In this document: positions 8,448-55,791 of the stretch, in pieces | Position numbering within the stretch: the stretch's first letter is position 1 | Layout of the letters: every line of letters starts with the position of its first letter | Source: Candidatus Magasanikbacteria bacterium RIFCSPHIGHO2_01_FULL_33_34 | GTDB taxonomy: Bacteria > Patescibacteriota > Patescibacteriia > Magasanikbacterales > UBA922 | Length of the DNA stretch: 64,000 nt | Assembly (NCBI GenBank): GCA_001782825.1 | Contig: MFPS01000007.1 | Span: 148,487-212,486 of the forward strand | Direction of reading: 5' to 3' | The notes under the pieces: generated by a model | Seen by the model: only the letters and a program-made list of their open reading frames with translations | What the model was told of the DNA's origin: nothing | The model's database searches: none | Made by a program: the position numbers and the translations under genes

Positions 8448-8547
8448 ATTAAAATATGATTCATTCTGAACGGATTTGTTTGGCACAACAGCCAAACACC
8501 TCGGAGCCCAAGGCGATAATGAGTGAAGAATGAATCATATTTTAATT
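8448..8547 (+). repeat. Nested palindromic intergenic element, copy R2 (divergent subfamily C); core 8472-8522
   Basis: Arms aattaaaatatgattcattc / gaatgaatcatattttaatt. Core GGATTTGTTTGGCACAACAGCCAAACACCTCGGAGCCCAAGGCGATAATGA. Apical hairpin GTTTGGC/GCCAAAC carries compensatory changes relative to GGTTGCC/GGCAACC of subfamily B. Confidence 0.8.
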
Positions 8548-8580
8548 TGTTGTAACATACATGATATAATTGTAATCACT

Positions 8581-9057
8581 ATGTTAAGAAAATTTGTCCA
8601 AAAATTAAACTATAATAGAAGCAACAGCATAACCAAAATAAAATTCAAAATATCGCCTGAAGCTAAAAGACTAGCTAAAAAATTATTTGAAAATAAATCT
8701 GAAAAATATAGACAAAATATTGGTGATGAGTTATTGGATGAACTAGCTGATATGGCAAAAATCGATATTGTTAACCTCAAGATATCCGACAAAAATCAAT
8801 ATCACAAAAAAAGAAATGGACGAGTATCATCCAAACAATATGGTTATTACAAACCCGGTAGCAAATACATCTACATACACAATAGAACTGCTGTCAGAGG
8901 TCAAATATTAGCTAATAAGACCTTCCTAGACACACTTCTACACGAATGGATGCATCATTATGATTTCTGTAAATTACATTTAAACTCAATCCATACAGCT
9001 GGATTTTATGCCAGACTCAAAGATCTCAAAACAAAACTGGGCTGGCTAGAATTATAG
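8581..9057 (+). CDS. Hypothetical protein with SprT-like HExxH zinc-metallopeptidase-like motif (HEWMHH…H)
   Basis: Track ORF 8530-9057; its first 17 codons lie inside repeat R2, so start moved to MLRKF (8581); motif TLLHEWMHHYDFCKLHLNSIHTAGFY. Confidence 0.4.
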   Translation: MLRKFVQKLNYNRSNSITKIKFKISPEAKRLAKKLFENKSEKYRQNIGDELLDELADMAKIDIVNLKISDKNQYHKKRNGRVSSKQYGYYKPGSKYIYIHNRTAVRGQILANKTFLDTLLHEWMHHYDFCKLHLNSIHTAGFYARLKDLKTKLGWLEL

Positions 9058-9083
9058 CCAAAGTCTCTTTATTACAAACGGGG

Positions 9084-9112
9084 TTGACAACTATCCTAAA
9101 ATCTTGTATTAT
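9084..9112 (+). promoter_or_regulatory. Near-consensus sigma70-type promoter TTGACA-N17-TATTAT upstream of a 43-aa basic ORF and tRNA-Asp
   Basis: TTGACA at 9084-9089, 17-nt spacer, TATTAT at 9107-9112. Confidence 0.5.
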
Positions 9113-9276
9113 ATTGCTATTACTAATCAAATTATATGGGTGTAAGAAAAAAAAATAGAAACCTTTGGAAAGCTGAGCGCAAGGTACAAATCAAAAAAAT
9201 TAGTGCCAAACGTTTAAAAAAATCTCTAAAACTAAAGGCTAAAGAAAAAGCTACTGCTTAATGTAGTAGTTATTAC

Positions 9277-9351
9277 GGACCGGTAGTTCAACTGGTTAGA
9301 GCACTGCCCTGTCACGGCAGAAGTTGCGAGTTCGAGTCTCGTCCGGTCCGC
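9277..9351 (+). tRNA. tRNA-Asp (anticodon GTC)
   Basis: GGACCGG acceptor, D-arm TAGTTCAACTGGTTAGAGC, anticodon loop CTGTCAC, T-arm GCGAG/TTCGAGT/CTCGT; no encoded CCA. Confidence 0.9.
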
Positions 9352-9478
9352 AAAAATTAATTGATCTTCTGTTAAAAGTTAATTTTAAATTATTTATTTA
9401 TCAATACAAATAATCACTTTGCTCTTGTTTTTTATATATATTTATGATTTAATTGTTTTCAAGAAAGGATACTATCTG

Positions 9479-9970
9479 ATGAAAACTCGTAAAGAATCAA
9501 GTCTTGATAAATTCAGTCGTACTATGGACATGCACCATTGGGTTGGTGAAGAAGAGTGTCCAGTGTGCAAATACGACAAAAAAGGTACAACTCACCCAAT
9601 GACATGTAACGACTGTGGCATTCGTCGTACTGCCTGTGCTGAACAAAGTTGTTACCACTATTGGATCTATGACTGGCCAGATGGCACTCAAGAACTAATT
9701 CCACCATGCGGAAATAAACAACCAGACCCAAAAGTAGCAATGTTTGGCATTGTTCGAATCTGTGCCCATTGTAATCACTGTCTTGAAACTGACTACGAGG
9801 GAGGTACAGGTACCTGTCACTATCTAGCAATGGAACTAGCAAGAAAGCCACCCTCTAAACAACCTAGTAATCCTAACTACAGACGTGCCTTGGAGTTAAT
9901 AGCCGAAAGAACTATTCTTCACAAAAACGCTGGTACAAAAGAATATAAAGTTGTAATTCGAAAACTATAA
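9479..9970 (+). CDS. Cys-rich hypothetical protein (12 Cys; CPVC, CNDCG, CAHCNHC clusters), GC-elevated
   Basis: Track ORF 9419-9970; start at MKTRK (9479) has an AGGA ribosome-binding site 9 nt upstream; GC ~42% against a ~30% background. Confidence 0.5.
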   Translation: MKTRKESSLDKFSRTMDMHHWVGEEECPVCKYDKKGTTHPMTCNDCGIRRTACAEQSCYHYWIYDWPDGTQELIPPCGNKQPDPKVAMFGIVRICAHCNHCLETDYEGGTGTCHYLAMELARKPPSKQPSNPNYRRALELIAERTILHKNAGTKEYKVVIRKL

Positions 9971-10119
9971 TACAACCAAGGCACCTGCGAAGAATCTGTT
10001 CGCCTGCCTATTTTATTTCTGAACTATATTTGGAAATAAAATAAGGAGTATAATGCGAACAGTTTTTTTGTTTTTAAAATAAAACTATTAAAAACAAAAA
10101 ATCACCAAATATTTGATGA

Positions 10120-10162
10120 TTTTTTGTTTTTGCCTGTAGCTATTCAAAGCTACAGGCTTATT
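10120..10162. terminator. Bidirectional rho-independent terminator between convergent genes
   Basis: gcctgtagc-tattcaaa-gctacaggc with a U-run on both sides. Confidence 0.55.
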
Positions 10163-10184
10163 GGAATGAATATATTCCTCCTCA

Positions 10185-10586
10185 TTATTTATTGAAGTCT
10201 ACTACATGTTGATGTATGTCTTCTTCAGACTTTTTTTGAGAATTATCCTTATTATGTTTTCTTCGCTTCCCCTTGCCTTTTTCTAAACTAGGAAACATAC
10301 TATTTATCTTGGATTTAATCTCCTGTGCTTTATTACTCTCAACAAACACGTAAAAAATCTGAATATACTTATTACCCCTGACCTTTACCTCCAAACCAGA
10401 TCTAGTTTCATTGCAAATTACACTCCCCTGCGAAACTGATTTGATTGATGATATTATACCAATAGAAATTCCTTTGACACCATCAAGTGTCTTCAGAAAA
10501 TCTACCACTGGACCAGATGCATCAATGATGGTAGTATGTCTACCCCTGAACTTATCACCACTACGATGATTCTTCTTACTCATCAA
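10185..10586 (-). CDS. Hypothetical 133-aa protein, GC-elevated islet
   Basis: ORF track; 9 nt downstream of the 10596-11126 gene (2-gene operon); no motif recognised. Confidence 0.45.
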   Translation of the reverse strand: MMSKKNHRSGDKFRGRHTTIIDASGPVVDFLKTLDGVKGISIGIISSIKSVSQGSVICNETRSGLEVKVRGNKYIQIFYVFVESNKAQEIKSKINSMFPSLEKGKGKRRKHNKDNSQKKSEEDIHQHVVDFNK

Positions 10587-10595
10587 ACTACCCCT

Positions 10596-11126
10596 CTAGC
10601 GACGACTCAGTACTTCGTCCCAAGTAGACTCGTAGTAAGGACCCATGACATTTGATTCCCAAACAAGACCATACTTAGTCCAAAACTGAATTGATTCACT
10701 AAACTCATCCCTGTTATACCCAGGACGACTAAATGCAAAATTGGTAGGCTCTTTAGGAGTATTAGCTCCTACGTATCCAGTAATCAAAAACCACTGAATT
10801 CCACGTTTTACAGCAACTAGAGTAAACAATGAACTATTAAGCTTCACACCACCAACAACCACGTGTGTTGGCTTATCACGACCAATACGAACAGCAAAGG
10901 TATGTGGTCGATCTGGAAACCTTTCTACAAGTGAACTTTGGCCAATAATCTGACCAAAATTAATCTCACCTGCGTGAAATATTTTACCGTAAGGTAGCCT
11001 TGTTCTTTTAGCTGCCTCTTCGAGCAACCCTCCTGCTTCTGGATGAGCACGAAGATGTTCTACAGTATCATCATTAAGATGAATAATATTACCACACAAT
11101 GTTCTGAGTTCACGTGGAACAAGCAT
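10596..11126 (-). CDS. Hypothetical 176-aa protein, GC-elevated islet
   Basis: ORF track; strong GGAGG ribosome-binding site 7 nt before ATG; GC ~42%; no motif recognised. Confidence 0.5.
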   Translation of the reverse strand: MLVPRELRTLCGNIIHLNDDTVEHLRAHPEAGGLLEEAAKRTRLPYGKIFHAGEINFGQIIGQSSLVERFPDRPHTFAVRIGRDKPTHVVVGGVKLNSSLFTLVAVKRGIQWFLITGYVGANTPKEPTNFAFSRPGYNRDEFSESIQFWTKYGLVWESNVMGPYYESTWDEVLSRR

Positions 11127-11309
11127 GATATGCCTCCATTGAGCTTTTGAATGTCTATGGTTTTCGCCTTACTTATACTGACAAGGCTCATCAGTCCGTA
11201 ACTCTTACGGAGAACCATAAACTTTTAATTTTCTCAATATAAAAATATACTACAAAACTATACTTTTGTCAATAATGCCCAAAAACAAAAAGAGCGACCA
11301 ATTGCTCTT

Positions 11310-11666
11310 TTACTCCTTTCTATTTTTTGGAAAATCTTTTTCTGCTTGTTCAATAATAACTACAAATATTTCAAATTGTGCTTTAGTAAGTCCCTTTGCT
11401 TGAAGTATTTCCATATATGCTTCCATAAATTCAATAATTTTTTGCCTCAAAATTCTAAAATCTTTTTTTTCAACAATCTCACGAACTGAGATAAACCGTT
11501 TCTGAATACTTTCAATATCCTCCAATGATACTTTTTCACCATGCACCGAATCAACTATTGCTAATTCCAAAAGACTCTTAAACTCTACCAAACTTCCAAA
11601 CTTATTTAAAAGATCAACTATCTCACCTCTCAAAATATTCAAATTATGCGCAGAATTTTTTTCCAT
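11310..11666 (-). CDS. Hypothetical ~118-aa helical protein
   Basis: ORF track (start alternatives at 11687 or 11666); followed by hairpin terminator aagagcgaccaattgctctt. Confidence 0.4.
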   Translation of the reverse strand: MEKNSAHNLNILRGEIVDLLNKFGSLVEFKSLLELAIVDSVHGEKVSLEDIESIQKRFISVREIVEKKDFRILRQKIIEFMEAYMEILQAKGLTKAQFEIFVVIIEQAEKDFPKNRKE

Positions 11667-11723
11667 AAACACCCCTCCTTTACCCAAAGATATACTACAA
11701 TATCACCGCTGTCAACCAAAACA

Positions 11724-11748
11724 AAAGAGCGACTTCAAGTCGCTCATC
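11724..11748 (-). terminator. Rho-independent terminator of the 11752-12360 gene
   Basis: gagcgacttgaagtcgctc + TTTTGTTTT on minus strand. Confidence 0.5.
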
Positions 11749-11751
11749 CCA

Positions 11752-12360
11752 TTATTTGTCCCCATTTCTTTTGAATGGTATTATTTCTGCCAATTTTTTA
11801 TCTGAATCTATTTCTTTTTTTATTTCTACATCTCTTGAAAAAATTATTTTCAATTCAGTAGTATCAATTTCTGCAGAATCAACCGGATATTTGTGTTGCC
11901 TACTACCACATCCATAACCAGGTGTAGTCACCCAAACATCACTATGCTGATGAAAAGATCTTATAAAAATATGCTCCAAAACTAATAAATTTCGCATTCC
12001 TGAACGAATATCAATAGCTGGGTCACTATGATGTTCTTTGAAAAAATCGACCATATTAGAAACATCATCTCTATGAACAATATACAAATATTGAACCTTT
12101 TTAGTACCTTCTGAAAAATCAACTACCATCAAAACACAATACTTCAAATGATCCAGGCTAGAAACATTATATGTAGTCTCACAATGCCACTGAGGTATTT
12201 CTTTTTTTATTGGTTTTATTGATTTAGTAGGATATTTGTCATTTCCCTTTATTATTGGTTTAATGAAATCTTCAATAAACCACCCAAATACTACAATCCC
12301 CAACACCATCAAAGGTATCAAAAAATAATCAGCATAATTCATAATACCCTCCTTATACAC
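11752..12360 (-). CDS. N-terminally membrane-anchored hypothetical protein (several His/Asp clusters)
   Basis: ORF track; TM FLIPLMVLGIVVFGWFI; no confident family. Confidence 0.45.
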   Translation of the reverse strand: MYKEGIMNYADYFLIPLMVLGIVVFGWFIEDFIKPIIKGNDKYPTKSIKPIKKEIPQWHCETTYNVSSLDHLKYCVLMVVDFSEGTKKVQYLYIVHRDDVSNMVDFFKEHHSDPAIDIRSGMRNLLVLEHIFIRSFHQHSDVWVTTPGYGCGSRQHKYPVDSAEIDTTELKIIFSRDVEIKKEIDSDKKLAEIIPFKRNGDK

Positions 12361-12389
12361 ACTAAATCACTAAAATATTATCTTGTCAA

Positions 12390-12420
12390 CCAAAAAAGCA
12401 GTTCATCAAACTGCTTTTAA
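12390..12420 (-). terminator. Rho-independent terminator of ppsA
   Basis: aaaagcagtttgatgaactgctttttt on minus strand directly after the stop. Confidence 0.55.
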
Positions 12421-12421: not shown

Positions 12422-15400
12422 TTATTCTAAATCATCTGAATCACATACTTCCCAATACTGCGGTACATCACATGGCGTCGCAAAGGCTTCACATTCACTA
12501 TCTTTATTTTTTCTGGCATAAGCAATCATTTGTATGCAAACTTTTTTATCACGCACATCCCAATGATTTAATTCTCTATCTGGCAAAGCATTCTCATCAT
12601 CGGACTCAAAACTGAAACTTTCTAACATTCTTACAAATTTTTCAGAATTACTATTTATTTCCAAAATTGATCCGTCATCCATTTCAACTTCAACCACACT
12701 TATTTTGGCATCATTATCAGAAAATAAAACTTCATATGAAAATGCTGGCATATTATCAAGTTTTATACTTTGTTTGTCTAATTGTCTGACTGGATGATCA
12801 ACCAATTGCATAAATACACTTACATACTCACCAGTTTCTGAATTTTTGGCAGATACGCCATTTTTCCAATGTTCTACTGACCAAGTTGATGGATAATCCA
12901 TTGAAAATTTTGCAAATGAACTTTCACTCAATTTGCTCATTTTGTTTTCAAATTCTTCTTCTTTGGCTTCAAGCGCTCTTAGATTGTCTTCTCTGGCTTG
13001 TGCAGTGAATTTTTCTCTCAATTCAACTGGACTGATCTCACTCATTTTACTATCAAGTACTTTATTGTAGCCAGTTACATCAGTACAGCCAGCACCCAGA
13101 CTAATCAAACCAGCGCCCATAATACCTACCAAAACTACAATCCCAAGATGTTTTTTGCTAGTTTTACTACCAGTTTTACCAAGAGTTTTTTCTGTATAAG
13201 CTATCTTTTCTCGAGCAGACACAACTGTATCAGGATTCAAGGATATACTATCAATTCCCTCGCGTACCAAAAATTCTGCAAATTCTGGATAATCACTCGG
13301 TGCTTGTCCACAAATACCAATTTTTTTCTTGTATTTGTGAGCAACATGAATAACATTTCTAATCAAAGATTTTACAGCCTCATCATTTTCATTATATACA
13401 TGACTTACCAAAGCTGAATCTCTGTCAACTCCAAGTGTCAACTGAGTTAAATCATTGGATCCAATACTAAAACCATCAAAAATTTTGGCAAATTCTTCTG
13501 CCAAAATTACATTGGCAGGAATCTCGCACATCACATATACTTGCAAACCATTTTCGCCTTGCTTTAAACCAAATTCTGCCATAGTATTCAAAACTTTTTT
13601 ACCTTCTTCTGGAGTGCGACAAAACGGAACCATAGTAATTACATTGTCTAATCCCCATTCATCTCTTACTTTTTTGATTGCTTCACATTCCAACTTGAAA
13701 GCTGGTTTATATTCTTTTGAATAATAACGACTTGCTCCTCGCCAACCAATCATTGGATTTTGTTCTTTTGGTTCAAATTCTGTACCCCCAACCAAAGTAG
13801 CATATTCATTGGTTTTAAAATCACTAAATCTAATAATTACATCATTTGGATAAGCTGATGCCGCAATTCTACCTATTCCTTCAGCCAACTTGTCTACACA
13901 ATAATCAGTCTTTTTTTTGTATGCACGGGTAATACTAGCTATTTTCTTTTTAGCGACTTTGTCTTTTAATTTATTAAAATGAACTAAAGCAAGTGGATGA
14001 ATACGAATAAAATTTGTAAAAATAAATTCCTCTCGAGCAAGCCCAACACCATCATTTGGCAAAAATGACATAGCAAAAGCATTGTCCGGATCACCTACAT
14101 TCATCATTATTTTAGTTTTTGTCTTTTTTATATTTTTTATTTCAATTTTTTTAACCTCAAAAGGTAAAATTGTATTATATATATGACCTTCATCACCCTC
14201 AGCACAGCTGACAGTCACTGATTGATTATTTTTTAATAATTTTCTTACATTTGAGGCGCCTACAATTGCTGGTACACCTAACTCACGCGATACAATAGCC
14301 GCATGAGAAGTTTTACCACCTTGTTCAGTTACAATTGCAGAAGCAATACGCATAATCGGCTCCCAATCTGGATCAGTTATTCTAGTGACCAAAATTTCAC
14401 CTTTCTTAAATTTATTCATGTCTTTTGGATCTTCAATAATCCTCACTTTACCAGTACCAATTTTCTGACCAACACCAATACCAGTTGCAAGTAATTTACC
14501 TTTTTTCTTTAAAATATATTCCTCTACTACTGCATGATTTGATCTAGCTTTGACAGTTTCGGGTCGTGCCTGCACAATAAATAATTTTCCTGTCTGACCA
14601 TCCTTGGCCCACTCCAAATCTTGTGGCTTGCCATAATGTTCAGCAATTTGTACTGCCCATTTAGACAATTGAATAATTTCTTTGTCTGATATACAAAATT
14701 TATTTCTATCAGCTAACTTTACATTTTCTTGTATAGTACCTCCACCACTTTTTTTGTATACCAATTTTACATCCTTTGTACCCACTATCCGACTAATAAT
14801 AGACGCTTTACCTTTTTTTAAACCTTCTTTAAAAATATAAAATTGATCTGGTGTTACTCTACCTTTTACAACATATTCACCCAAACCATACGAAGCAGTT
14901 AATAATACCACCCCATCAAATCCAGACTCCGTATCTAATGAAAACATTACACCACTAGTAGCCAAATCCGATCGTACCATTTCTTGGACAGCTACAGACA
15001 ATGCCACATTCAAATGATCATAACCATGACCTTCACGATAAGAAATAGCTCTATTTGTAAACAAAGAGGCCACACAATCTTTAACTGCTTTCAATAACTG
15101 TTTGTTACCCACTACATTCAAATAAGTCTCTTGTTGACCAGCAAAACTAGCATCTGGCAAATCCTCTGCAGTAGCACTAGATCGTACAGCCACAGCTACT
15201 CCTGTTTTAGTATTTCCAGATAATTTTTTGTAAGCTTCCAATATTTCCTTCTCAATTTCTTTGGGGAATGTCGCTTCCAAAATCATTTCACGCACTTTTT
15301 TACCTACTCTTTCCAATTCTACTACATTTGTAACATCCAACCCTTTGATAGCAGTTTTTATATTCTTATCCAGACCTGTGCTTTTCAAAAAACTCCAATA

Positions 15401-15580
15401 GGCTGAACTAGTCAAGGCATATCCATTGGGAATACTCACACCCTTTGACGTCAGTTTTGAATACATTTCTCCCAAAGATGCATTTTTGCCACCAACAAGA
15501 GGCACATCTTTTATAGATATTTCATCAAACCAAAGAATATTTTTCTCTGTTCTTTTTTGAGTATTATTTTTAACTACCAT
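12422..15580 (-). CDS. ppsA: Phosphoenolpyruvate synthase (PEP-utilising enzyme family) fused to a C-terminal transmembrane helix plus ~240-aa extra domain
   Basis: N-terminal PPDK/PpsA ATP-grasp region, central phospho-His motif (GGKTSHAAIVSRELGVPAIVG), C-terminal PEP-binding TIM barrel (…GSNDLTQLTLGVDRDS…). Then HLGIVVLVGIMGAGLISLGAG (TM) and an acidic 240-aa tail. Confidence 0.85.
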   Translation of the reverse strand: MVVKNNTQKRTEKNILWFDEISIKDVPLVGGKNASLGEMYSKLTSKGVSIPNGYALTSSAYWSFLKSTGLDKNIKTAIKGLDVTNVVELERVGKKVREMILEATFPKEIEKEILEAYKKLSGNTKTGVAVAVRSSATAEDLPDASFAGQQETYLNVVGNKQLLKAVKDCVASLFTNRAISYREGHGYDHLNVALSVAVQEMVRSDLATSGVMFSLDTESGFDGVVLLTASYGLGEYVVKGRVTPDQFYIFKEGLKKGKASIISRIVGTKDVKLVYKKSGGGTIQENVKLADRNKFCISDKEIIQLSKWAVQIAEHYGKPQDLEWAKDGQTGKLFIVQARPETVKARSNHAVVEEYILKKKGKLLATGIGVGQKIGTGKVRIIEDPKDMNKFKKGEILVTRITDPDWEPIMRIASAIVTEQGGKTSHAAIVSRELGVPAIVGASNVRKLLKNNQSVTVSCAEGDEGHIYNTILPFEVKKIEIKNIKKTKTKIMMNVGDPDNAFAMSFLPNDGVGLAREEFIFTNFIRIHPLALVHFNKLKDKVAKKKIASITRAYKKKTDYCVDKLAEGIGRIAASAYPNDVIIRFSDFKTNEYATLVGGTEFEPKEQNPMIGWRGASRYYSKEYKPAFKLECEAIKKVRDEWGLDNVITMVPFCRTPEEGKKVLNTMAEFGLKQGENGLQVYVMCEIPANVILAEEFAKIFDGFSIGSNDLTQLTLGVDRDSALVSHVYNENDEAVKSLIRNVIHVAHKYKKKIGICGQAPSDYPEFAEFLVREGIDSISLNPDTVVSAREKIAYTEKTLGKTGSKTSKKHLGIVVLVGIMGAGLISLGAGCTDVTGYNKVLDSKMSEISPVELREKFTAQAREDNLRALEAKEEEFENKMSKLSESSFAKFSMDYPSTWSVEHWKNGVSAKNSETGEYVSVFMQLVDHPVRQLDKQSIKLDNMPAFSYEVLFSDNDAKISVVEVEMDDGSILEINSNSEKFVRMLESFSFESDDENALPDRELNHWDVRDKKVCIQMIAYARKNKDSECEAFATPCDVPQYWEVCDSDDLE

Positions 15581-15630
15581 GTACTTAAAAAATATTTTAA
15601 AATAACTTTTTACTATATATAGTATACCAC

Positions 15631-15660
15631 ATTTTTCAATCTATTGAAAAAGTTAGACAA
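15631..15660 (-). promoter_or_regulatory. Candidate extended -10 promoter (TGgTATACT) for ppsA
   Basis: rc of 15631-15641 = TGTGGTATACT, ~45 nt upstream of the ppsA start. Confidence 0.3.
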
Positions 15661-15675: not shown

Positions 15676-17109
15676 CTAGACTTCTCTTACCTCCAACAAA
15701 TTAATATGTCCAGCCTCACCAATCGGTTCACCAGCTACAATAATAATTTTGTCTTTTTTCTTTAAGATTTTTTTCTTATGTAATAATTCTATAGATTTTT
15801 TTGACATCTCTTCTATAGAACTAAATTCACCATACTTATATGGTCTAACCCCCCATGACAAATTCAATTGACGATTCACAATTTCAGTACGAGTCAAAAT
15901 CACAATTTTTGTATCTGGCCTATAACTACTCAACAGTCTACCCGTATCTCCTGATACTGAAGCTGATAAAATCAATTTTGCCTCTATACCCTCTGCAAGC
16001 ATTCTAGACAATCCACTGATAATATCATCAACGTCTTTACTCAAATTACTATATTTTTTTGTAGGCAAATTATCATATTCAGATCTTTCAGCTTCTTCAA
16101 TAATATTACTCATAACAGCAACGGCCAAATCTGGATAATGTCCAATAGCTGTTTCAGCCGAAAGCATTACCGCATCAGCGCTATCAATCACAGCATTAGC
16201 CACATCAGAAACTTCTGCTCGTGTTGGATCAGGACTATATTTCATTGATTCAAGCATTTGTGTTGCGACTATCACCGGTTTTTCTTTCTTTATACACTGA
16301 GCAATTATTTTCTTTTGAATCATCGGTACCTTTTGAATTGGAATTTCAATACCCAAGTCTCCACGAGCAATCATGATTGCATCTGACACATCTATAATAC
16401 TTTCAATATTCTCAACCGCCTCATGTCTTTCAATTTTTGAAATTATTCTAATTTTATTTTTTTTGCTTATTTTTAATTTTTTTTGATGTTTATTTATTAA
16501 TCTAGATAAAGCTTTAACATCTTTACTACTATTTACAAAAGACAAGGCAATAAAATCTACTTTTTGTTCAATCCCAAAACACACATCCTCTCTGTCCTTT
16601 TTTGTCAAAGAAGTTAAATTCAACTTTGTATCGGGAATATTCATCCCCTTATGCGATGTCAAAAGTCCGCCTGTTTTAACTTTACAAATAATTTTTGACC
16701 CTTGTATAGAAATAACTTTTGTTTCAATATGTCCATCATTCAAAAAAATCCTCTCATTTTTTTTGACAAAATTATGCAATGGATAATCAATCGTTATCTG
16801 ATTACCGACACATTCTTTTATTAAATAATTAAAAATAATTTTCTGTCCACTACTCAACTCAATACCCTCTGTTGGTAATTCACCCACCCTAATCTTTGGT
16901 CCTTGTAAATCTTGTATAATTGCAATCGGTTCACCACTAGCTTTCTCAAGTCTTCTTACTCTTTTGATTACATTCAAATATTCATCATGATTGCCATGTG
17001 AAAAATTTAAACGAACAACATTCATCCCATTTTTTTGCATTTTTTCCAAAACTTCATACTTGTCTGATGCTGGTCCTATTGTACACACAATTTTAGTACT
17101 TTTTTCCAT
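15676..17109 (-). CDS. pyk: Pyruvate kinase
   Basis: MEKSTKIVCTIGPASDKYEVLEKMQKNGMNVVRLNFSHGNHDEY… canonical PK N-terminus, full length. Confidence 0.9.
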   Translation of the reverse strand: MEKSTKIVCTIGPASDKYEVLEKMQKNGMNVVRLNFSHGNHDEYLNVIKRVRRLEKASGEPIAIIQDLQGPKIRVGELPTEGIELSSGQKIIFNYLIKECVGNQITIDYPLHNFVKKNERIFLNDGHIETKVISIQGSKIICKVKTGGLLTSHKGMNIPDTKLNLTSLTKKDREDVCFGIEQKVDFIALSFVNSSKDVKALSRLINKHQKKLKISKKNKIRIISKIERHEAVENIESIIDVSDAIMIARGDLGIEIPIQKVPMIQKKIIAQCIKKEKPVIVATQMLESMKYSPDPTRAEVSDVANAVIDSADAVMLSAETAIGHYPDLAVAVMSNIIEEAERSEYDNLPTKKYSNLSKDVDDIISGLSRMLAEGIEAKLILSASVSGDTGRLLSSYRPDTKIVILTRTEIVNRQLNLSWGVRPYKYGEFSSIEEMSKKSIELLHKKKILKKKDKIIIVAGEPIGEAGHINLLEVREV

Positions 17110-17145: not shown

Positions 17146-17601
17146 CTATTTGTTTATCATTCCCTTAACTTGTTCCAATTGTTCTGCTGTAAGATTTGAT
17201 ACGCTATCTAAACCAAAACCTTCTCGAAGTATATTGCCTAGATTCATATTTCCAGGTGCAGTACCAAAAATATTCTGTATTTGAGCTGTATATTGTTCTA
17301 TAATTGCTGGTAAATATATAATAGCCAAAACTATTGGGGCTACAATGAGTAATAATTTAACATAATTCACAAACACCATCATATTCAACCTACTTTTTAT
17401 TTTTTTATTCTGCGCATAAATAGCTTTTGACCATTTGATATTTTTTTCAATCAGCTCTTCAAGCGAATCCTTTTTTGCGATCACAACTGGCTCATTTTTT
17501 TTATCAGTCTTTTTTTTCTTTTTATTTTCTTCTGGTGGAATATTTATCTCAATATCCATTGGTTCAGGCAAACCCTCATCAGATATTTTTTCATCTATCA
17601 T
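17146..17601 (-). CDS. Hypothetical protein with one TM helix
   Basis: ORF track; K-rich N-terminus, TM LLLIVAPIVLAIIYLPAII. Confidence 0.4.
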   Translation of the reverse strand: MIDEKISDEGLPEPMDIEINIPPEENKKKKKTDKKNEPVVIAKKDSLEELIEKNIKWSKAIYAQNKKIKSRLNMMVFVNYVKLLLIVAPIVLAIIYLPAIIEQYTAQIQNIFGTAPGNMNLGNILREGFGLDSVSNLTAEQLEQVKGMINK

Positions 17602-23053: not shown

Positions 23054-23920
23054 TTACTGACCCAAATCAAATATTCTTCCTGGACCTATTGGACTATACC
23101 CATTTTTTACTTCCGCGCCATCTGGAAAACCATCGCCATCGGTATCTGATTTGAGAGGATTACTTTTCCAAACCAAAACTTCGTCACCATCTCCCAAGCC
23201 ATCGTGATCACTATCCCAATTATCAGGATTCAAACCTATTTCCAATTCAATATCATCACTCAAATTATCAGAATCAGTATCAACTGGTTCACCAAATAAT
23301 ACTTCATCTTCCATTATCCTATCCTCTATTCCATCTTGTCCACTGTCTATCATTGAGTCATTAGGATCAACTATATCATCCATAAATATAGCCTCATCAT
23401 TTATATCAGTTACTTCCATTTTTTCATCTTTTGTATCGACTGAATCAAAATCACTTACTTCATCAACTAACGGCGCTGGTGTATCACCTTTGACAAACAA
23501 AGAATAAACCAACCAACTTCCTCCACCTAATATTGCAAACCCAACCAAAATAATAAAAAAAATCATCAGATTTTTTGCAAGCCCCGGACCTTTTATTTTA
23601 TTTAAATCTTCTTTACTTCCTGGCATTATATGTAATTTTGGCTCTTTCGCAAAAATATCCTCACCAAGTGGTGGATTAGTAATTATAGCCCCACTAGTAG
23701 ATTGAGGAATATTTTGTTTAGTTTGTAATTTTCCAACACCTACAGCTGTTTGTATAGGCATAGACGTTGATTTTGGTGATGGAATAGAACTTAATAAATC
23801 AGAAGAATTATCTTTAGCCACTGGAATATCCTCATCAGTACCAGCAAAAATATCTTCAGCTTTACCAACTGGTAAATTAGAAGGTATTTGATTATTGTTT
23901 ATTGGTTGATCATCAAACAT
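23054..23920 (-). CDS. Single-pass membrane protein with acidic ectodomain and C-terminal TSP3-like repeats ending NGYSPIGPG
   Basis: TM LMIFFIILVGFAILGGGSWLVY; DSDHDGLGDGDE…SDTDGDGFPDGAEVKNGYSPIGPGRIFDLGQ. Confidence 0.5.
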   Translation of the reverse strand: MFDDQPINNNQIPSNLPVGKAEDIFAGTDEDIPVAKDNSSDLLSSIPSPKSTSMPIQTAVGVGKLQTKQNIPQSTSGAIITNPPLGEDIFAKEPKLHIMPGSKEDLNKIKGPGLAKNLMIFFIILVGFAILGGGSWLVYSLFVKGDTPAPLVDEVSDFDSVDTKDEKMEVTDINDEAIFMDDIVDPNDSMIDSGQDGIEDRIMEDEVLFGEPVDTDSDNLSDDIELEIGLNPDNWDSDHDGLGDGDEVLVWKSNPLKSDTDGDGFPDGAEVKNGYSPIGPGRIFDLGQ

Positions 23921-23944
23921 ATTTCAAAATTTTAATTTACAATC

Positions 23945-24010
23945 TTAATTGTAAGAATTTAAAACATCATTTATAATTAATGCGATCGTGATTGAAAGTA
24001 TAAACAATGC
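23945..24010. repeat. Apparent empty-site paralogue of the R3 flanks (outer repeat without the inner insert and core)
   Basis: TTGTAAGAATTtAAAACaTcATTTATAATTAA|TGCGaTCgTGATTGAAAGTATAAACAATgCTA, ~90% identical to 18101-18132 plus 18233-18262. Confidence 0.6.
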
Positions 24011-24074
24011 TATTTTATCTTACAAATTAATTAACACTATTCATACACTATTATATAAAATTATTAACAATATT

Positions 24075-24638
24075 TCAAATCTTTCCTGAACCTAAAGGGT
24101 TATATCCATTAGTAATTTCATAACCATCCGAAAAGCCATCCCCATCTGTATCAGATTTAGTCGGGTCAGTTTTATATTCTTCCACTTCTAATTTATCCGA
24201 TATACCATCCCAATCAGTATCAAATTCTGTATTACTTATACCTAATCTTTCTTCTTCAATATCCAAAACACCATCATTATCCAAATCATCATCTTCCAAT
24301 CTCAAAGAGGTAACTCCTATATTTTGTTTTTGTACTTTTTCAATTGGCTTTTTAACTTCCACTTCTACGCTCGTATCCTCTGTCTCACTTATTTTTTTAA
24401 TATCTTTTTTTACAAAAATATTAGTAAAAAAAATTAAATATACTAATATACTTATCAAAATAATGATACCACTAATAATCAAAATCATTTTAAATTTTGA
24501 TTTTCTTTGTGGATAGTCAAGTTCATTGCTATATACATTTTGATCCACTATTTTATTGTCATCTTGATATTCATTCATCTTATATTTAATTAAATTATTA
24601 TAAATATTATGGTTCAATATATGGCGGATCAACCACAT
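24075..24638 (-). CDS. Single-pass membrane protein with TSP3-like Ca-binding repeats ending NGYNPLGSG
   Basis: TM MILIISGIIILISILVYLIFF; DDDLDNDGVLDIEEE…TDWDGISD…SDTDGDGFSDGYEITNGYNPLGSGKI; start overlaps the giant gene's 3' end by 32 nt. Confidence 0.5.
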   Translation of the reverse strand: MWLIRHILNHNIYNNLIKYKMNEYQDDNKIVDQNVYSNELDYPQRKSKFKMILIISGIIILISILVYLIFFTNIFVKKDIKKISETEDTSVEVEVKKPIEKVQKQNIGVTSLRLEDDDLDNDGVLDIEEERLGISNTEFDTDWDGISDKLEVEEYKTDPTKSDTDGDGFSDGYEITNGYNPLGSGKI

Positions 24639-27600
24639 CTATTACACAACGACAGTCTACATTACAAGTTTCAAGCGCATAACAACCAGCATTTGATCCA
24701 TCACATTCTTCACCTGGTGGTTGTATAATTCCATCACCACAATAAGCTGGTGGAAGTATAATCAAAGGCCCACATTCACAATTTGAATAACACTCTTCAA
24801 AGAAACCACAATTTAATGAACTACCATCACATTCCTCATTTGCTTCTCTACTACCATTACCACACACTGCATAGCCATCACAAGTATTAAGACAATTATT
24901 TTGACCTGGAATTGCTGGATCACATATCTCACTTCCATCAATCCTACCATCACCACAAATAGACAATTCACCAATAACTCCACCCGTCTGAATCTGTTCA
25001 GCACTAGTAGCAATTCTATTTAACGGCAATATCTCATAATCACCAGAAGTTGCATCTCTATCTATATTAAACAAATGCCAATATCTCGCTGCAGGATTTG
25101 AACTCTTTAGAGCATCTTCTATAACATAAGTAATATCTGGTCTAAATACAGTCCGGAAAGATTCTGCTCCGGCTGGAGTTTCTCTATATTCATAAACATA
25201 AACTTCCAAATCACTATCATCAAAATATGCCATCGGTACCCCACCGGCCACACTTTGTGCTTCTACAAATACTGCATACGGCCCATAATTCAATAAAGAA
25301 TTTGGCGCAGTATTGAGTGGTATATTTATGGTCATTGATTGTATAAAAGTATCTTCACCCTCATTGATATCATGCATATAAAAACCTTCATTACCAAGCC
25401 CCAATGGCCAAACTGTACAACTTCTGGTTGTATTTGCAAAATTATAGTCAGGAATCCAATAACCACCAACCAGTTCTGTACCGATACAGATCTGTTTTGG
25501 TGTTGCCATATTTCTTTGCATAAACCTATCAGTTCCACCCAAAGTATCATCAGCTGACAAAATACCTAAACCAAAATCTGTACCACCAAATTCTTGTGAT
25601 TCTTCTCTTGTCCATTTAAGCACAACCCTAATTTGTCCTTCTGGTAAAGCAGGAGAAACAATAAAATCATTCACAACAGTATTTAATTCATTATTAACAT
25701 CATAACTATATACAAATTCTGATTCTGGTGATGTTTCTAGACAATTTTCAGTTCCAGCTTGAGGTGTCAAACACATATAATAACTACCATTACAAGCATT
25801 GTCAGCGATAATGCCATTCAATATATCTGTTTCACCCCATGGATAAAATATATTACTAGGTACATACATAACATCAACCAAATCAGGTCCTGCATAAAAT
25901 TGCACTCTATTATTTACAAGAAGTGAACTACCACTATTAGTCAAAAAATATGGTCCATTAGGCTCTGTATAATCTCTAAAATAAAACTTTGCAAACAATC
26001 CATTAGGGTCTGTACCCCATTGCCCACCAGAATAATGCAAACTAATCATCGGATTTAATATTCTCAAACTAGGATCAATGCCACCGCTTGTTAGTCTCTT
26101 ACTTCCACACTGTATACAATTATTATATAAAAATCCACAACTATTTCTACACTCATAATTACCAGTCAAAGTAGTATAAGTCCCATTCTCTAAAGAATAA
26201 TTACCACTTCGTCTGCTACATTGATCTAATTCAAATGTGCCAGAATTTGTCACAATATAAGGATTTGGACAATTTGCACCAACACAATTAGGTCTAACAT
26301 ACTCACAAACCTCAGTTCTAGAACAAAAATTATCAACACAATACCCAGAATTACAATCTGTGTTAGCAGTACAATAACCAAGTGGTTGACAAAAACCTGC
26401 TGGGCTACAATAATTAGAATCACAATCAGCCACTTGAGTAGCAACAGTACACGGATCATTAATATTTCCACTACCACCATAATCTACCAATGAAATAACA
26501 TCAATATTCTCATTACCACAATAAGCATTTGGTTCAATATAAAGTACCTCTCTACAATCCCATGAACAAAAGTTACAGCCTTGGTTGTAACCAGGGACAC
26601 ACTGGACACCATTTATACCATCACCTCTATCACATACTTCACCAGCATCAATATTACTATTACCACAATTACCTAAATCAGGCGTAACATTATCTACAGG
26701 CGCAGAAGCTTCATTTCTACAATTATTTGCACAACCATCTCCGCTAATATTGTTACCATCATCACATTCTTCGGCTGAAGTACATACTCCTGCACTACAA
26801 TTATTTGAAAAACATTGACTATTATTTAAGCAGATTGCACCACTATTACCAGTATGCAAAATTCCATCACCACAACGAGGACCTAATTGTTTACAATTTG
26901 CTGAACAACTATTAGAAGGTAGAGCAAATGTTGGTGGTGTTAAATATGCACCATTGTTAGCTCCTATATCACAATATTCAACTGGTGAACAAACATTCAT
27001 AGCCAAACAATTTCTATTTGTTCCACAACTTGTAACACAAGCATTAGGATTACCGGTACAATTTACATTATTAAATGCGCAATAACTATTTACAACATTA
27101 TCACCACAAAAACTGGCACTAAAAGTACACATAGCCGAACAATTTCCAGGTGTACCATTTAATGCCCCATCATCACATTGTTCTAATCCATCTACCCTAC
27201 CATTACCACACAAAATATCAACATCACAGCCACTATCCTGCCAATTACACGAACTATTACAAACTCTAGCTAAAGTACCCGAAATAGGTACACCATTCAC
27301 ATCTACTGCACAAGCATTTAATGTGTCAACCAATTGGCCAGGAGGATCACACTGTTCAGTACCATTTACAATCCCATTACCACAAGAACCAGACAAAGGT
27401 GATTCTGTACTTCCAGACACACCACACATAGAACCAATCTGAAAATGACTAACATCTATAAATGAACCCAAATCAGACAATCCAAAATATTCTGGACGCC
27501 CATAAATCATATAATCATTTGCTACATCAGGTCTATACTCTAATACTGATGAAACTGCTGGACAAATAAATCTACTATTCACTTCATCCCAACAGGTCTG

Positions 27601-43925: not shown

Positions 43926-43936
43926 ATATTAATATT

Positions 43937-44746: not shown

Positions 44747-44857
44747 TTTATACAAAAAAATGTATATTTATAAAAAATTAAAAATAAGTTAATAATATAA
44801 ATAATTAAAATTAATAAATTAACAAAAATTTTATTTAATTAATCTAAGCAAAAAAAT

Positions 44858-45103: not shown

Positions 45104-45132
45104 CAAGTATAAATAACTAAGTCTAATACAAT

Positions 45133-46005: not shown

Positions 46006-46031
46006 GCATTTCAAATTAAAAACTAACCAAT

Positions 46032-46903: not shown

Positions 46904-46928
46904 TTCTATTGGCTATGAACTACCAACT

Positions 46929-47615: not shown

Positions 47616-47653
47616 ACATGCTATAATGAAAATATATTTATTAATTTACTCAT

Positions 47654-55785: not shown

Positions 55786-55791
55786 AAAAAT

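What the first reader, a model, noticed from the sequence alone, without database searches (positions are those of the whole stretch)
12422..13210. PEP synthase fused to a transmembrane helix and a 240-aa C-terminal domain; gene adjacent to pyruvate kinase
The first ~790 aa are a complete PpsA/PPDK-type enzyme. Then follow a hydrophobic helix (HLGIVVLVGIMGAGLISLGAG) and an acidic, Cys-containing ~240-aa domain of unknown type. Its coding region is 12422-13150. A membrane-tethered PEP synthase is unusual. The gene also sits next to pyk, which catalyses the opposing reaction. Together these suggest regulated or compartmentalised PEP/pyruvate interconversion, or a moonlighting membrane function.
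Basis: seen in the sequence. Interest (0 to 1): 0.55.

Follow-up and report, generated by a model that had tools for sequence, protein, structure and literature searches.

The report
Membrane-tethered PEP synthase with surface domain
In a whole lineage of ultra-small (CPR) bacteria, the central-metabolism enzyme PEP synthase is made as one chain with a lipoprotein-style export signal in its middle and a surface-exposed binding domain at its end, and that odd architecture is kept even in relatives where the enzyme part has died.

Summary
Window 12422-15580 (-) is one 1052-aa ORF. It holds a complete, catalytically intact PpsA (res 1-800), a Lys-rich stretch, a 21-residue uncharged helix ending in LGAG-C832, and an acidic 221-aa tail. 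It is not a frameshift: over 140 protein clusters and 34 genomic loci, nearly all labelled Magasanikbacteria/Patescibacteria, keep the same single frame, usually right after pyk.

The 'TM helix' has the anatomy of a lipoprotein (SPase II) signal peptide placed internally. G829, G831 and C832 are invariant and are followed by a hypervariable, disordered tether. The tail is a PsbP/Mog1-fold domain plus a new about 35-aa four-Cys module, and both occur elsewhere only in exported proteins. The topology is therefore enzyme inside, tail outside.

At least 24 orthologue clusters have lost the PpsA catalytic motifs yet keep body length, junction and tail. The tail's conservation is unchanged. The conserved function is therefore not simply PEP synthesis.

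Best reading: a membrane-tethered PpsA whose exported C-terminal part is lipid-anchored at Cys832 and probably cut off by LspA. Processing is inferred, not shown; lgt and lspA could not be located. No prior description was found. It is a new variant built from known parts.

The parts
15676..17109 (-). pyk (pyruvate kinase), directly upstream of the fusion gene. The pair is conserved.
   Evidence: Pfam PK and PK_C match. pyk lies upstream of the fusion in 22 related loci and in L001, L003, L043 and L044.
15612..15639 (-). Sigma-70-like promoter match in the 95-nt pyk-ppsA gap (weak evidence).
   Evidence: TTGAAA-16-TATAGT, 10 of 12 positions. The scan found no more sites than shuffled sequence, so this is only a consensus match.
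12422..15580 (-). Whole fusion ORF, 1052 aa plus stop.
   Evidence: An identical protein, P0004, comes from a Candidatus Magasanikbacteria MAG on a 1.17-Mb contig.
14525..15502 (-). PpsA nucleotide-binding (PPDK_N, ATP-grasp) domain, res 27-352.
   Evidence: Pfam PF01326, E=2e-120. The GGKNA, RSSATAED and QARPET motifs are intact.
14195..14410 (-). Swivelling phospho-histidine domain, res 391-462. His426 is at 14303-14305.
   Evidence: Pfam PF00391, E=1.4e-25. The GGKTSHAAIV motif is present.
13196..14137 (-). PEP/pyruvate-binding TIM-barrel domain, res 482-795. The catalytic Cys757 is at 13310-13312.
   Evidence: Pfam PF02896, E=8e-63. The GLAREE, GWRGASR, GSNDLTQ and CGQ motifs are intact.
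13151..13180 (-). Juxtamembrane n-region, res 801-810 (GKTGSKTSKK). It is positively charged and lies inside the conserved motif E797-K-T-[LVI]-G-+-x-G-+-+-T.
   Evidence: Net charge is +4.2 over the 15 residues before the helix in 120 homologues. E797 is invariant, and T799, G801, G804 and T807 are at least 90% conserved. The motif is retained in dead-body orthologues.
13097..13150 (-). Hydrophobic h-region / membrane helix, res 811-828.
   Evidence: Kyte-Doolittle mean 2.3. The uncharged stretch is 21-26 aa in all 120 homologues. AF2 models a helix at 809-828.
13085..13099 (-). Lipobox-like c-region, L828-G-A-G-C832.
   Evidence: [LVI]G[AG]GC is present with Cys in 120 of 120 homologues. G829, G831 and C832 are invariant with zero entropy. 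The region lies outside the helix and is disordered in AF2. The same GAGC box occurs in an ordinary N-terminal lipoprotein of the clade.
13031..13084 (-). Hypervariable, disordered tether, res 833-850.
   Evidence: Entropy is above 3 bits, with indels. pLDDT is below 50.
12944..13030 (-). Long ectodomain helix, res 851-879. It begins with the conserved SPA-[IL]-R855 motif.
   Evidence: AF2 helix with pLDDT above 90. R855 is invariant.
12581..12943 (-). PsbP/Mog1-fold beta domain, res 880-1000, with the signature F889-A-x-F-x-x-x-Y-P897-x-x-W900.
   Evidence: The AF2 model has pLDDT 91. Foldseek hits BT_1490, Tsi3, PsbP and PPL at E=1e-4 to 1e-3, and LpqN, DcrB and MTC28 more weakly. Stand-alone relatives reach Pfam PsbP_2, and one is named 'PsbP C-terminal domain-containing protein' by UniRef.
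12440..12547 (-). Four-Cys module, res 1012-1047 (C1015, C1030, C1037, C1046). Consensus: C-x-Q-V-I-T-Y-A...C-x-x-F-P-T-P-C-D-V-P-x-G-W-x-x-C.
   Evidence: The Cys are conserved in the long-tail class. The module occurs in 1-6 tandem copies in signal-peptide or lipoprotein-bearing proteins such as P0141, P0148 and P0229. It has no Pfam family. It is absent in 13 of 120 short-tail members.
12394..12418 (-). Hairpin immediately after the stop codon. It is a likely intrinsic terminator, and the palindrome can be read on either strand.
   Evidence: AAAAGCAGTT-catca-AACTGCTTTT, followed by a T-run on the gene's strand.

Best explanation
**What is made.** The gene makes a single pre-protein with an N-in/C-out topology. 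The first 800 residues are a working PEP synthase (PpsA) that stays in the cytoplasm.

**The internal signal.** Residues 801-832 act as an internal signal peptide of the lipoprotein (SPase II) type. It has a Lys-rich n-region on the inside, a 21-residue hydrophobic helix across the membrane, and a lipobox, L-G-A-G-C832, at the outer face.

**The exported part.** The last 220 residues are translocated by Sec. They comprise a flexible tether, a helix, a PsbP/Mog1-fold binding domain and a disulfide-bonded four-Cys module. They sit on the cell surface.

**Most likely processing.** Cys832 is diacylglycerylated by Lgt, and the chain is then cut between G831 and C832 by LspA. The result would be (a) PpsA held at the inner face of the membrane by a C-terminal helix and (b) a stoichiometric surface lipoprotein.

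**Function.** The conserved, selected function of the architecture lies in the membrane junction plus the ectodomain, probably ligand or partner binding at the cell surface of an episymbiont. It does not lie in catalysis, because orthologues keep everything else after the enzyme has died.

**Shown:** the single frame, an intact enzyme, the signal-peptide anatomy and its invariance, the fold of the tail, the extracytoplasmic pedigree of both tail modules, and the decoupled evolution of body and tail.

**Inferred:** the topology (strongly), lipidation (moderately), cleavage (moderately), and the biological role of the ectodomain (weakly).
For: **Architecture**
- One ORF with an intact PpsA.
- The fusion is conserved in 120 or more clusters and in 34 of 34 loci.

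**Signal-peptide anatomy**
- The n-region carries a net +4.2 charge. The uncharged stretch is 21-26 aa. [LVI]G[AG]G-C is present with Cys in 120 of 120. The post-Cys segment has a net charge of -1.
- G829, G831 and C832 are invariant alongside catalytic residues.
- Entropy is zero at the box and above 3 bits, with indels, for the next 16 residues.
- In AF2 the helix ends at 828, and residues 829-850 are disordered.

**Lipoprotein pathway in the clade**
- Ordinary N-terminal lipoproteins occur in related loci, two of them with a GAGC box.
- 109 of 120 homologues of that cyclophilin carry a canonical N-terminal lipobox.
- SPII-type signals have been predicted in another CPR group (PMC7427843).

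**The tail is extracytoplasmic**
- It has a PsbP/Mog1 fold.
- Stand-alone relatives are N-terminally anchored or lipoprotein PsbP_2 proteins.
- The four-Cys module recurs only behind signal peptides.
- The tail is acidic while the body is basic.

**Functional independence of the tail**
- Dead-body orthologues occupy the same syntenic slot.
- Body identity falls from 73% to 27%, while tail identity moves only from 34% to 28%.
Against: - lgt and lspA were not found in the window or in about 0.6 Mb of related DNA. This sampling is uninformative, but the genes remain unverified for this genome.
- No N-terminal lipoprotein was detected in the 64-kb window itself.
- Gly at position -3 is atypical. 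GAGC is 1 of 109 among the clade's cyclophilin lipoboxes. Lipobox rules alone therefore do not explain its invariance.
- One subgroup (P0126-P0128) has no Cys at all and a more hydrophobic helix. An uncleaved TM tether, or an SPase I site, is therefore viable.
- Full-length bodies are retained after catalytic death in 1-Mb genomes. This suggests the body still matters, which is easier to understand if body and tail stay linked.
- No precedent for SPase II processing of an internal signal after a large cytoplasmic domain was found in the literature.
Confidence: 0.55

Rival explanations
1. An unprocessed bitopic 'receptor-enzyme'. The chain stays intact. The PsbP-like ectodomain binds an external or host-surface ligand. 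It controls PpsA, or a non-catalytic activity of the PpsA-like body, through the single helix or through dimerisation. This is analogous to kinases with a cytoplasmic catalytic domain, one TM helix and an extracellular sensor domain.
For: - The body, the juxtamembrane motif (E797...T807, at least 90% conserved) and the tail are always kept together.
- Dead bodies are retained at full length in the syntenic slot, as if the cytoplasmic part is still needed.
- The subgroup P0126-P0128 has a plain, more hydrophobic helix without the Cys.
- L812, V815 and G819 of the helix are fairly conserved.
Against: - An invariant G-x-G-C, followed by a hypervariable disordered tether of about 18 residues, is a poor conduit for transmembrane signalling. 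It is unexplained by this model.
- The tail's constraint is the same whether the enzyme is alive or dead.
- The conservation periodicity of the helix is not significant, p=0.16.
Confidence: 0.27
2. Two separate products without proteolysis. The tail is translated on its own from an internal start codon, or the fusion is an assembly or frameshift artefact, as an ordinary lipoprotein gene that merely overlaps the end of ppsA in frame.
For: The Leu of the conserved 'TLGK' is encoded by TTG, a possible start codon, in about half of the loci.
Against: - In the window that codon is CTT. There is no ATG, GTG or TTG in the n-region in the window, L012, L013, L026 or L035.
- No Shine-Dalgarno-like sequence is visible there.
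- 34 of 34 loci from independent assemblies have no stop between body and tail.
- Over 140 clusters share the architecture.
Confidence: 0.03
3. The hydrophobic segment is not membrane-spanning. The tail is a cytoplasmic regulatory or oligomerisation extension of PpsA, comparable to the C-terminal extension of multimeric archaeal PEP synthases.
For: From my own knowledge, PpsA-family enzymes with C-terminal oligomerisation extensions exist in archaea. The tail starts with a long helix.
Against: - The segment has 21-26 uncharged residues, a Kyte-Doolittle mean of 2.0-2.5, and positive-inside flanks.
- The four conserved Cys lie in a module otherwise found only behind signal peptides.
- The PsbP-fold relatives are all exported.
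- The tail's conservation is independent of the enzyme's state.
Confidence: 0.03

Closest known systems
Phosphoenolpyruvate synthase PpsA (pyruvate, water dikinase; TIGR01418 / NF005057)
   Same: Residues 1-800 are a full-length member. All three domains are present, the scores are far above the curated cut-offs, and the phospho-His and catalytic Cys motifs are intact.
   Different: Canonical PpsA is a soluble cytoplasmic protein of about 790 aa that ends where this one's n-region begins. Here another 252 residues follow, carrying a membrane segment and an exported domain. Many orthologues have lost catalysis.
Bacterial lipoprotein signal peptides (Lgt/LspA pathway; PROSITE PS51257 lipobox)
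   Same: It has a positive n-region, an uncharged h-region, small residues at -1 and -3, an invariant +1 Cys, and then a disordered variable tether.
   Different: The signal lies 800 residues from the N-terminus, behind a folded cytoplasmic enzyme. Position -3 is invariably Gly rather than Leu or Ile. Processing is untested.
PsbP/Mog1-fold extracytoplasmic proteins (Pfam PsbP_2 PF18933, PsbP PF01789; DcrB, LpqN, Tsi3, BT_1490)
   Same: The tail shares their fold. Stand-alone CPR relatives of the tail match PsbP_2. From my own knowledge, several of these structural relatives are lipoproteins or periplasmic or lumenal binding proteins without enzymatic activity.
   Different: The window's tail itself does not reach any Pfam or NCBIfam model. 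It carries an extra N-terminal helix and a C-terminal four-Cys module. It is fused to an enzyme.
Single-pass receptor-type enzymes with a cytoplasmic catalytic domain, one TM helix and an extracellular sensor (e.g. PASTA Ser/Thr kinases such as PknB; own knowledge)
   Same: It shares the overall topology: a cytoplasmic enzyme at the N-terminus, one helix, and an extracellular binding domain at the C-terminus.
   Different: The enzyme is a central-carbon enzyme, not a signalling kinase. The helix ends in a lipobox followed by a floppy tether. There is no evidence for signal transmission.
Bacterial polyproteins split at an internal signal peptide (Bradyrhizobium FbcH cytochrome b/c1 precursor; own recollection, not retrievable in the paper library)
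   Same: The logic of one translation product is shared. An internal signal sequence both exports the downstream part and marks the cleavage site.
   Different: That case uses SPase I and joins two subunits of one respiratory complex. Here the signal is SPase II-like, and it joins a cytoplasmic metabolic enzyme to a surface domain.

Membership tests
PpsA (TIGR01418 / NF005057 equivalog) | Whole-protein score above the curated cut-off. | tested here: met
   1190 bits against a cut-off of 598, and 1152.7 against 739.75, over residues 11-800.
PpsA (TIGR01418 / NF005057 equivalog) | Three-domain architecture: PPDK_N, PEP-utilizers (mobile) and PEP-utilizers_C. | tested here: met
   All three Pfam domains are found in order, with E-values of 2e-120, 1.4e-25 and 8e-63.
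PpsA (TIGR01418 / NF005057 equivalog) | Catalytic phospho-His (TSH) and Cys (CGQ), plus the nucleotide-site and PEP-site motifs. | tested here: met
   51 of 51 motif residues are present in the window protein. By contrast, 9-37 of 51 are present in the dead-body group.
PpsA (TIGR01418 / NF005057 equivalog) | Pyruvate, water dikinase activity and its physiological direction. | not testable with these tools
   This needs an enzyme assay.
Lipoprotein (SPase II) signal peptide | A positively charged n-region followed by an uncharged h-region. | tested here: met
   Mean net charge of +4.2 and 21-26 uncharged residues in 120 of 120 homologues.
Lipoprotein (SPase II) signal peptide | A lipobox ending in an invariant Cys (PROSITE PS51257 pattern). 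| tested here: met
   LGAGC and its variants fit the PROSITE residue classes. Cys is present in 120 of 120 and is invariant in the 60-sequence alignment. Caveat: Gly at -3 is atypical, with GAGC 1 of 109 in the clade's cyclophilin lipoproteins.
Lipoprotein (SPase II) signal peptide | Location at the N-terminus of the precursor (Cys within about the first 35 residues). | tested here: not met
   The Cys is residue 832 of 1052. No conserved internal start codon exists.
Lipoprotein (SPase II) signal peptide | Lgt and LspA are encoded by the organism. | tested here: inconclusive
Indirect support comes from conserved N-terminal lipoproteins in the clade.
Lipoprotein (SPase II) signal peptide | Diacylglyceryl modification and cleavage before the Cys. 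| not testable with these tools
   This needs lipid labelling, globomycin treatment and mass spectrometry.
PsbP/Mog1-like domain (Pfam PsbP_2 PF18933 / PsbP PF01789) | Sequence match to the family model. | tested here: not met
   The window protein shows no Pfam family beyond the three PpsA domains, and the tail alone has no NCBIfam hit. There is no PDB sequence-profile hit. Homologous stand-alone proteins do reach PsbP_2: P0206 at 27.9 bits and P0246 at 29.3 bits, against a cut-off of 27.
PsbP/Mog1-like domain (Pfam PsbP_2 PF18933 / PsbP PF01789) | The alpha/beta sandwich fold of PsbP. | tested here: met
   The AF2 model has pLDDT 91. Foldseek reports probability 1.0 and E=1e-4 to 2e-3 against BT_1490, Tsi3, PsbP and PPL. 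TM-scores normalised on the target are 0.33-0.56. The match is moderate, at fold level only.

The most novel reading that the evidence does not exclude
The internal segment is a working SPase II signal. A single translation product is lipidated at Cys832 and cut by LspA. This yields a tail-anchored cytoplasmic PpsA, or in many lineages its catalytically dead scaffold, and a surface lipoprotein. It would be the first case of lipoprotein-pathway polyprotein processing. The 800-residue PpsA-derived body is retained even after enzymatic death because it is needed for the biogenesis, stoichiometry or inner-face partnering of the surface protein in these episymbiotic bacteria.
Probability: 0.35. Interest if true: 0.8.

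Novelty: new variant of a known kind. Interest (0 to 1): 0.68.

Why it matters
- **Protein targeting.** If the internal lipobox is used, the lipoprotein pathway can act on a signal buried 800 residues into a chain. It would turn a 'signal peptide' into a permanent membrane anchor for a cytoplasmic enzyme. That mode of protein targeting and processing has not been described.
- **A lineage marker with a testable function.** The architecture marks a whole CPR lineage (Magasanikbacteria). These organisms are uncultured, have about 1-Mb genomes and are thought to live attached to hosts. A surface PsbP-like binding domain that is obligatorily co-produced with a glycolytic/gluconeogenic enzyme is a concrete, testable candidate for linking the cell surface to central metabolism.
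- **Annotation.** Repeated catalytic death of the PpsA body, with the fold and the fusion retained, gives a natural series of pseudoenzymes. It also warns annotators that 'phosphoenolpyruvate synthase' calls in these genomes do not always imply the reaction, which affects metabolic reconstructions of CPR bacteria.
- **A new domain.** The roughly 35-aa four-Cys module is an undescribed secreted domain.

Tried and rejected
- **Frameshift or separate gene:** rejected. 34 of 34 loci are in one frame, and over 140 clusters share the architecture.
- **Internal start codon before the signal:** rejected as a general mechanism, because it is not conserved and is absent in the window.
- **Conserved helical face in the membrane segment:** tested by Fourier analysis of entropy against shuffles and not significant, p=0.16. 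No claim is made.
- **Direct search for Lgt and LspA:** phmmer with the E. coli proteins against all ORFs of the window and 44 loci found nothing. Pfam scans of 58 window ORFs found nothing either. All loci sample the same syntenic region, so this is uninformative rather than negative.
- **N-terminal lipobox regex on the window alone:** no credible hit.
- **Conserved downstream partner gene:** none. The ORFs at 8.5-12.4 kb have no homologues in related loci.
- **PDB sequence-profile search with the tail:** no meaningful hit.
- **Genome scan with the 42-sequence tail profile:** failed because the profile was too diverse. It was repeated with 10 closer sequences.
- **Tail-only word-indexed search:** found only 3 fragments because of index limits. 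The exhaustive profile search was needed.
- **Literature:** seven searches found no description of this fusion, of internal lipoboxes, or of Lgt/LspA in Patescibacteria. The FbcH precedent could not be retrieved.
- **Independent origins of the dead bodies:** the NJ tree on the tail scatters them into about 7 groups. The region is short and about 30% identical, so the number of independent losses is not established.
Full report

Yes. Window 12422..15580 on the minus strand is a single ORF of 1052 codons. Residues 11-800 match the curated PpsA equivalog models NF005057 and TIGR01418 at 1190 and 1153 bits, against cut-offs of 598 and 740. They contain PPDK_N (27-352), the mobile phospho-His domain (391-462) and PEP-utilizers_C (482-795). 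All nine catalytic or ligand-site motifs that I tracked are intact, including TSH426AA, GSNDLTQ and C757GQ.

After residue 800 come GKTGSKTSKK, then a 21-residue stretch without any charged residue (811-831). Its Kyte-Doolittle mean is 2.3 over 19 residues. Then come Cys832 and 220 further residues. These are acidic (pI 4.47, against 9.07 for the body) and contain four more Cys. A hairpin followed by a T-run sits just after the stop codon. pyk lies 95 nt upstream on the same strand.

**2. It is not an artefact.**

A search with the whole protein returned an identical protein from a Candidatus Magasanikbacteria MAG on a 1.17-Mb contig. It also returned more than 120 distinct clusters, 60-85% identical, about 975-1075 aa long, covering 93-100% of the query. 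Those that carry a source name are called Magasanikbacteria or Patescibacteria.

A scan of one genome per species found 36 loci. In the 34 related loci I hold in which the tail is preceded by PpsA-like sequence, the two lie in one uninterrupted frame.

An in-frame start codon in front of the hydrophobic segment is not conserved. It is absent in the window, where that Leu is CTT, and in L012, L013, L026 and L035. Separate translation of the tail is therefore not supported. The gene order nrdR, small ORF, pyk, fusion gene is conserved in many loci.

**3. What the 'TM helix' is.**

All 120 full-length homologues share the same layout:
- a Lys/Arg-rich stretch, net +4.2 over 15 residues;
- 21-26 uncharged residues;
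- then [L/V/I]-G-[A/G]-G-C. LGAGC occurs in 82 of 120, and the Cys in 120 of 120;
- a following 15 residues with a net charge of -1.

In a 60-sequence alignment, G829, G831 and C832 are invariant, on a par with active-site residues. Column entropy is 0 bits at these three positions. It jumps above 3 bits, with indels, for the next about 16 residues.

In the full-length AF2 model (pLDDT 82), the last PpsA helix ends at 799. A short low-confidence linker follows, and a helix spans 809-828. G829 to about residue 850 is disordered, with pLDDT below 50.

This is the anatomy of a lipoprotein (SPase II) signal peptide: a positive n-region, an h-region, a lipobox with an invariant Cys, and then the flexible tether of the mature lipoprotein. 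The difference is that it sits behind 800 residues of a cytoplasmic enzyme. The residue classes fit the PROSITE lipobox pattern, but the N-terminal position that the pattern requires is not met.

**4. Does the clade use lipoproteins?**

I could not find lgt or lspA in the window. The window does hold a type I signal peptidase at 39440-40084. I also found neither gene in about 0.6 Mb of related DNA. Those loci all sample the same region, so this result is uninformative.

Indirect evidence is good. Related loci encode ordinary N-terminal lipoproteins. Two orthologous cyclophilins have the same unusual box...ITGAGC|D and ...LSGAGC|S. Of 120 homologues of that cyclophilin, 109 carry a canonical N-terminal lipobox, and several are labelled Magasanikbacteria, Patescibacteria or Falkowbacteria. 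SPII-type signal peptides have also been predicted in Saccharibacteria (PMC7427843).

One caveat applies. In those cyclophilins, position -3 is normally L or I, and GAGC is 1 of 109. The invariant Gly at -3 in the fusion is therefore tolerated by lipobox rules rather than explained by them.

**5. What the tail is.**

An AF2 model of the mature tail, built from 42 diverse sequences, is confident (pLDDT 91.4). It shows a disordered 1-19, a long helix, a beta-rich domain and a small C-terminal sub-domain.

Foldseek against the PDB gives BT_1490, the immunity protein Tsi3, PsbP from plants and cyanobacteria, and PsbP-like subunits of NDH, at E=1e-4 to 2e-3. LpqN, DcrB and MTC28 match more weakly. 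This is the PsbP/Mog1 fold, and all of these proteins work outside the cytoplasm.

The window's tail hits no Pfam or NCBIfam model and no PDB sequence. An exhaustive profile search of 1.84 billion representatives found 977 hits, of three kinds:
- The full tail occurs almost only at the C-terminus of 870-1070-aa PpsA-like proteins, or in their fragments.
- Stand-alone relatives of 230-330 aa have an N-terminal membrane anchor or a prepilin signal, followed by the same domain. Several reach Pfam PsbP_2. One, from Candidatus Yanofskybacteria, is named 'PsbP C-terminal domain-containing protein' by UniRef. L013 encodes an N-terminal lipoprotein with the same F-x-Y-P-x-x-W signature.
- The last about 35 residues (C-x-QVITYA...C-x-x-FPTPCDVP-x-GW-x-x-C) form an independent module. 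It is found in 1-6 tandem copies behind classical signal or lipoprotein signals. It has no Pfam family.

Thirteen of the 120 fusions lack this module and then have Cys832 as their only tail Cys.

Three lines agree that the tail is exported and PpsA stays inside: the positive-inside flanks, the pedigree of both tail modules, and the conserved Cys quartet.

**6. The unexpected part: the enzyme is optional.**

L010 is a complete 1.23-Mb chromosome with pyk directly upstream. L010 and L015 both have PpsA bodies only 48% and 41% identical to the window's. The changes include:
- degraded nucleotide-site motifs (L010; the L015 contig lacks this part of the gene): RSSATAED... becomes RPSVIGG..., and QARPET becomes QVLPIK;
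- degraded PEP-site motifs: GWRGASR becomes DFIGVDR or is deleted, and GSNDLTQ becomes GSKDASS or TTKD;
- replacement of the catalytic Cys: CGQ becomes SGE or FGT.

Across all members I hold, 120 have 49-51 of 51 motif residues. Twenty-one have 9-37 of 51. Three more (P0126-P0128) have bodies only 15-20% identical, with no motif left.

Against the curated PpsA models, P0125, P0126, P0130, P0135, P0146 and P0182 score 46-487 bits and fail. L010 and P0214 pass only marginally, at about 760-780 bits.

These are orthologues, not extra copies. P0125 and P0126 sit in the same ybeY-dgkA-ftsA-ftsZ-nrdR-x-pyk slot. P0182 keeps the rplT-infC-smpB side but has no adjacent pyk.

All of them keep a body of about 700-800 residues, the E-K-T-[LVI]-G-+-x-G-+-+-T juxtamembrane motif, the hydrophobic segment and the tail. 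Median pairwise identity of the body falls from 73% among intact members to 27% among dead ones. The tail's identity is 34% and 28% respectively.

P0126-P0128 have also lost the Cys and have a more hydrophobic helix, ending ...V-S-G-F and similar. In that subgroup the tail is either permanently tethered by a TM helix or cut by SPase I. I cannot tell which.

**7. How it most likely works.**

The shown facts are these: a single chain, an intact enzyme in this organism, an internal signal with lipoprotein anatomy under extreme constraint, and a tail built of two exported-protein modules.

My inference runs as follows. PpsA folds in the cytoplasm. The internal signal engages Sec and inserts N-in/C-out. 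The C-terminal 220 residues are translocated, and the Cys module forms disulfides. Cys832 is diacylglycerylated by Lgt. LspA then probably cuts at G831|C832. That would leave PpsA tail-anchored at the inner face of the membrane, and a stoichiometric PsbP-like lipoprotein on the outer face.

I put the topology at about 0.9, lipidation at about 0.6 and cleavage at about 0.5.

The main rival is an unprocessed receptor-like enzyme. It is favoured by the retention of dead bodies and by the Cys-less subgroup. It is disfavoured by the invariant lipobox, the floppy hypervariable tether and the independence of tail conservation from enzyme state.

What the ectodomain binds is unknown. By analogy with PsbP-fold proteins, it is a non-enzymatic binding module. 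In a presumed episymbiont, a cell-surface or host-facing partner is the natural guess (inference).

**8. pyk adjacency.**

The pairing is real and conserved. It does not by itself imply opposition of reactions. PpsA is reversible, and from my own knowledge it is used in the glycolytic direction in Thermococcus kodakarensis. Nothing here tests the direction.

**9. Comparison with what is known, and novelty.**

Each part is known: PpsA, the lipoprotein signal and the PsbP fold. The combination is not. The new features are a central metabolic enzyme joined through an internal lipoprotein-type signal to a surface domain, conservation of this across a CPR lineage, and repeated decay of the enzyme while the architecture persists.

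Seven literature searches found no description. Public annotations call these proteins 'phosphoenolpyruvate synthase' or 'hypothetical protein'. I therefore file it as a new variant of a known kind, with moderately high interest.

**10. Limits.**

- Processing, lipidation, topology and enzyme direction are inferences.
- lgt and lspA remain unverified for this genome.
- Only Foldseek against the PDB was available for fold comparison, and its TM-scores are moderate.
- The number of independent catalytic losses rests on a crude NJ tree.
- Several MAG titles ('uncultured Gammaproteobacteria') conflict with the Patescibacteria-type synteny and are probably placeholder labels.

Noticed in passing
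related loci L010 (7418-10636), L015, L043 (10001-12913), L044 (8001-10757), L045 (8001-10877); proteins P0125-P0149 and others: Orthologues of the window gene have PpsA bodies that have lost the catalytic His and Cys and the ATP-site and PEP-site motifs. They fail the curated PpsA models. They remain full-length and are still annotated 'pyruvate, water dikinase' in at least one source (P0130). This is a pseudoenzyme series and an annotation trap for CPR metabolic reconstructions.
   Followed up: yes
window 12440-12547 (-); P0141, P0145, P0148, P0215, P0227, P0229; L037-L040: A module of about 35 aa with four Cys (C-x-QVITYA...FPTPCDVP-x-GW-x-x-C) has no Pfam family. It occurs in 1-6 tandem copies in secreted proteins and lipoproteins, including in Thermoanaerobaculia MAGs. 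It is apparently an undescribed small extracellular domain.
   Followed up: partly
window 23054-37151 (-): A giant 3499-aa ORF (24607-35106) is flanked by two TSP3_bac-repeat proteins and a 679-aa Big_5 + T4SS-pilin-domain protein. This looks like a surface or adhesin cluster. Similar TSP3-repeat genes sit next to ybeY in L003, L043 and L044, and a very large (2990-residue) gene runs off the start of L043.
   Followed up: no
window 8500-12400: A block of ORFs between rplT and the fusion gene has no significant Pfam match. It includes a Cys/His-rich 183-aa ORF at 9419-9970. The three ORFs I searched (10596-12360) have no homologues in the related loci. Local GC rises to 0.41-0.42 against about 0.32 elsewhere. 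This is a variable, possibly acquired island.
   Followed up: partly
window 42460-60283 (+): There is a near-complete de novo pyrimidine pathway (carA, carB, pyrB, pyrI, pyrC, pyrD, pyrE, pyrF). It is accompanied by dCMP deaminase, dUTPase, thyA, folA and tmk. This is notable for a roughly 1-Mb CPR genome, a group usually described as poor in nucleotide biosynthesis.
   Followed up: no
window 17146-17601 (-): A small ORF of 151 aa between nrdR and pyk has no Pfam match. It is conserved in position and sequence in at least 10 related loci. It is an uncharacterised conserved member of the nrdR-x-pyk-ppsA block.
   Followed up: partly
L006, L008-L011, L014, L015, L019, L026, L028, L033 (record titles): MAG records titled 'uncultured Gammaproteobacteria bacterium' (TPA_asm) carry the Magasanikbacteria-type fusion and, where the contig reaches far enough, the same synteny. 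One is a 1.23-Mb complete chromosome, OZ246405.1. The taxonomic label is probably a placeholder or an error.
   Followed up: no
L013 16353-16853 (+); L020 11089, L021 10287, L022 3805: L013 encodes a stand-alone N-terminal lipoprotein with the PsbP-like F-x-Y-P-x-x-W signature a few kb downstream of its fusion gene. In L020, L021 and L022, a Cys-rich lipoprotein (MFSRAMLF...LLSGC|DTPG) lies immediately downstream of the fusion gene.
   Followed up: no
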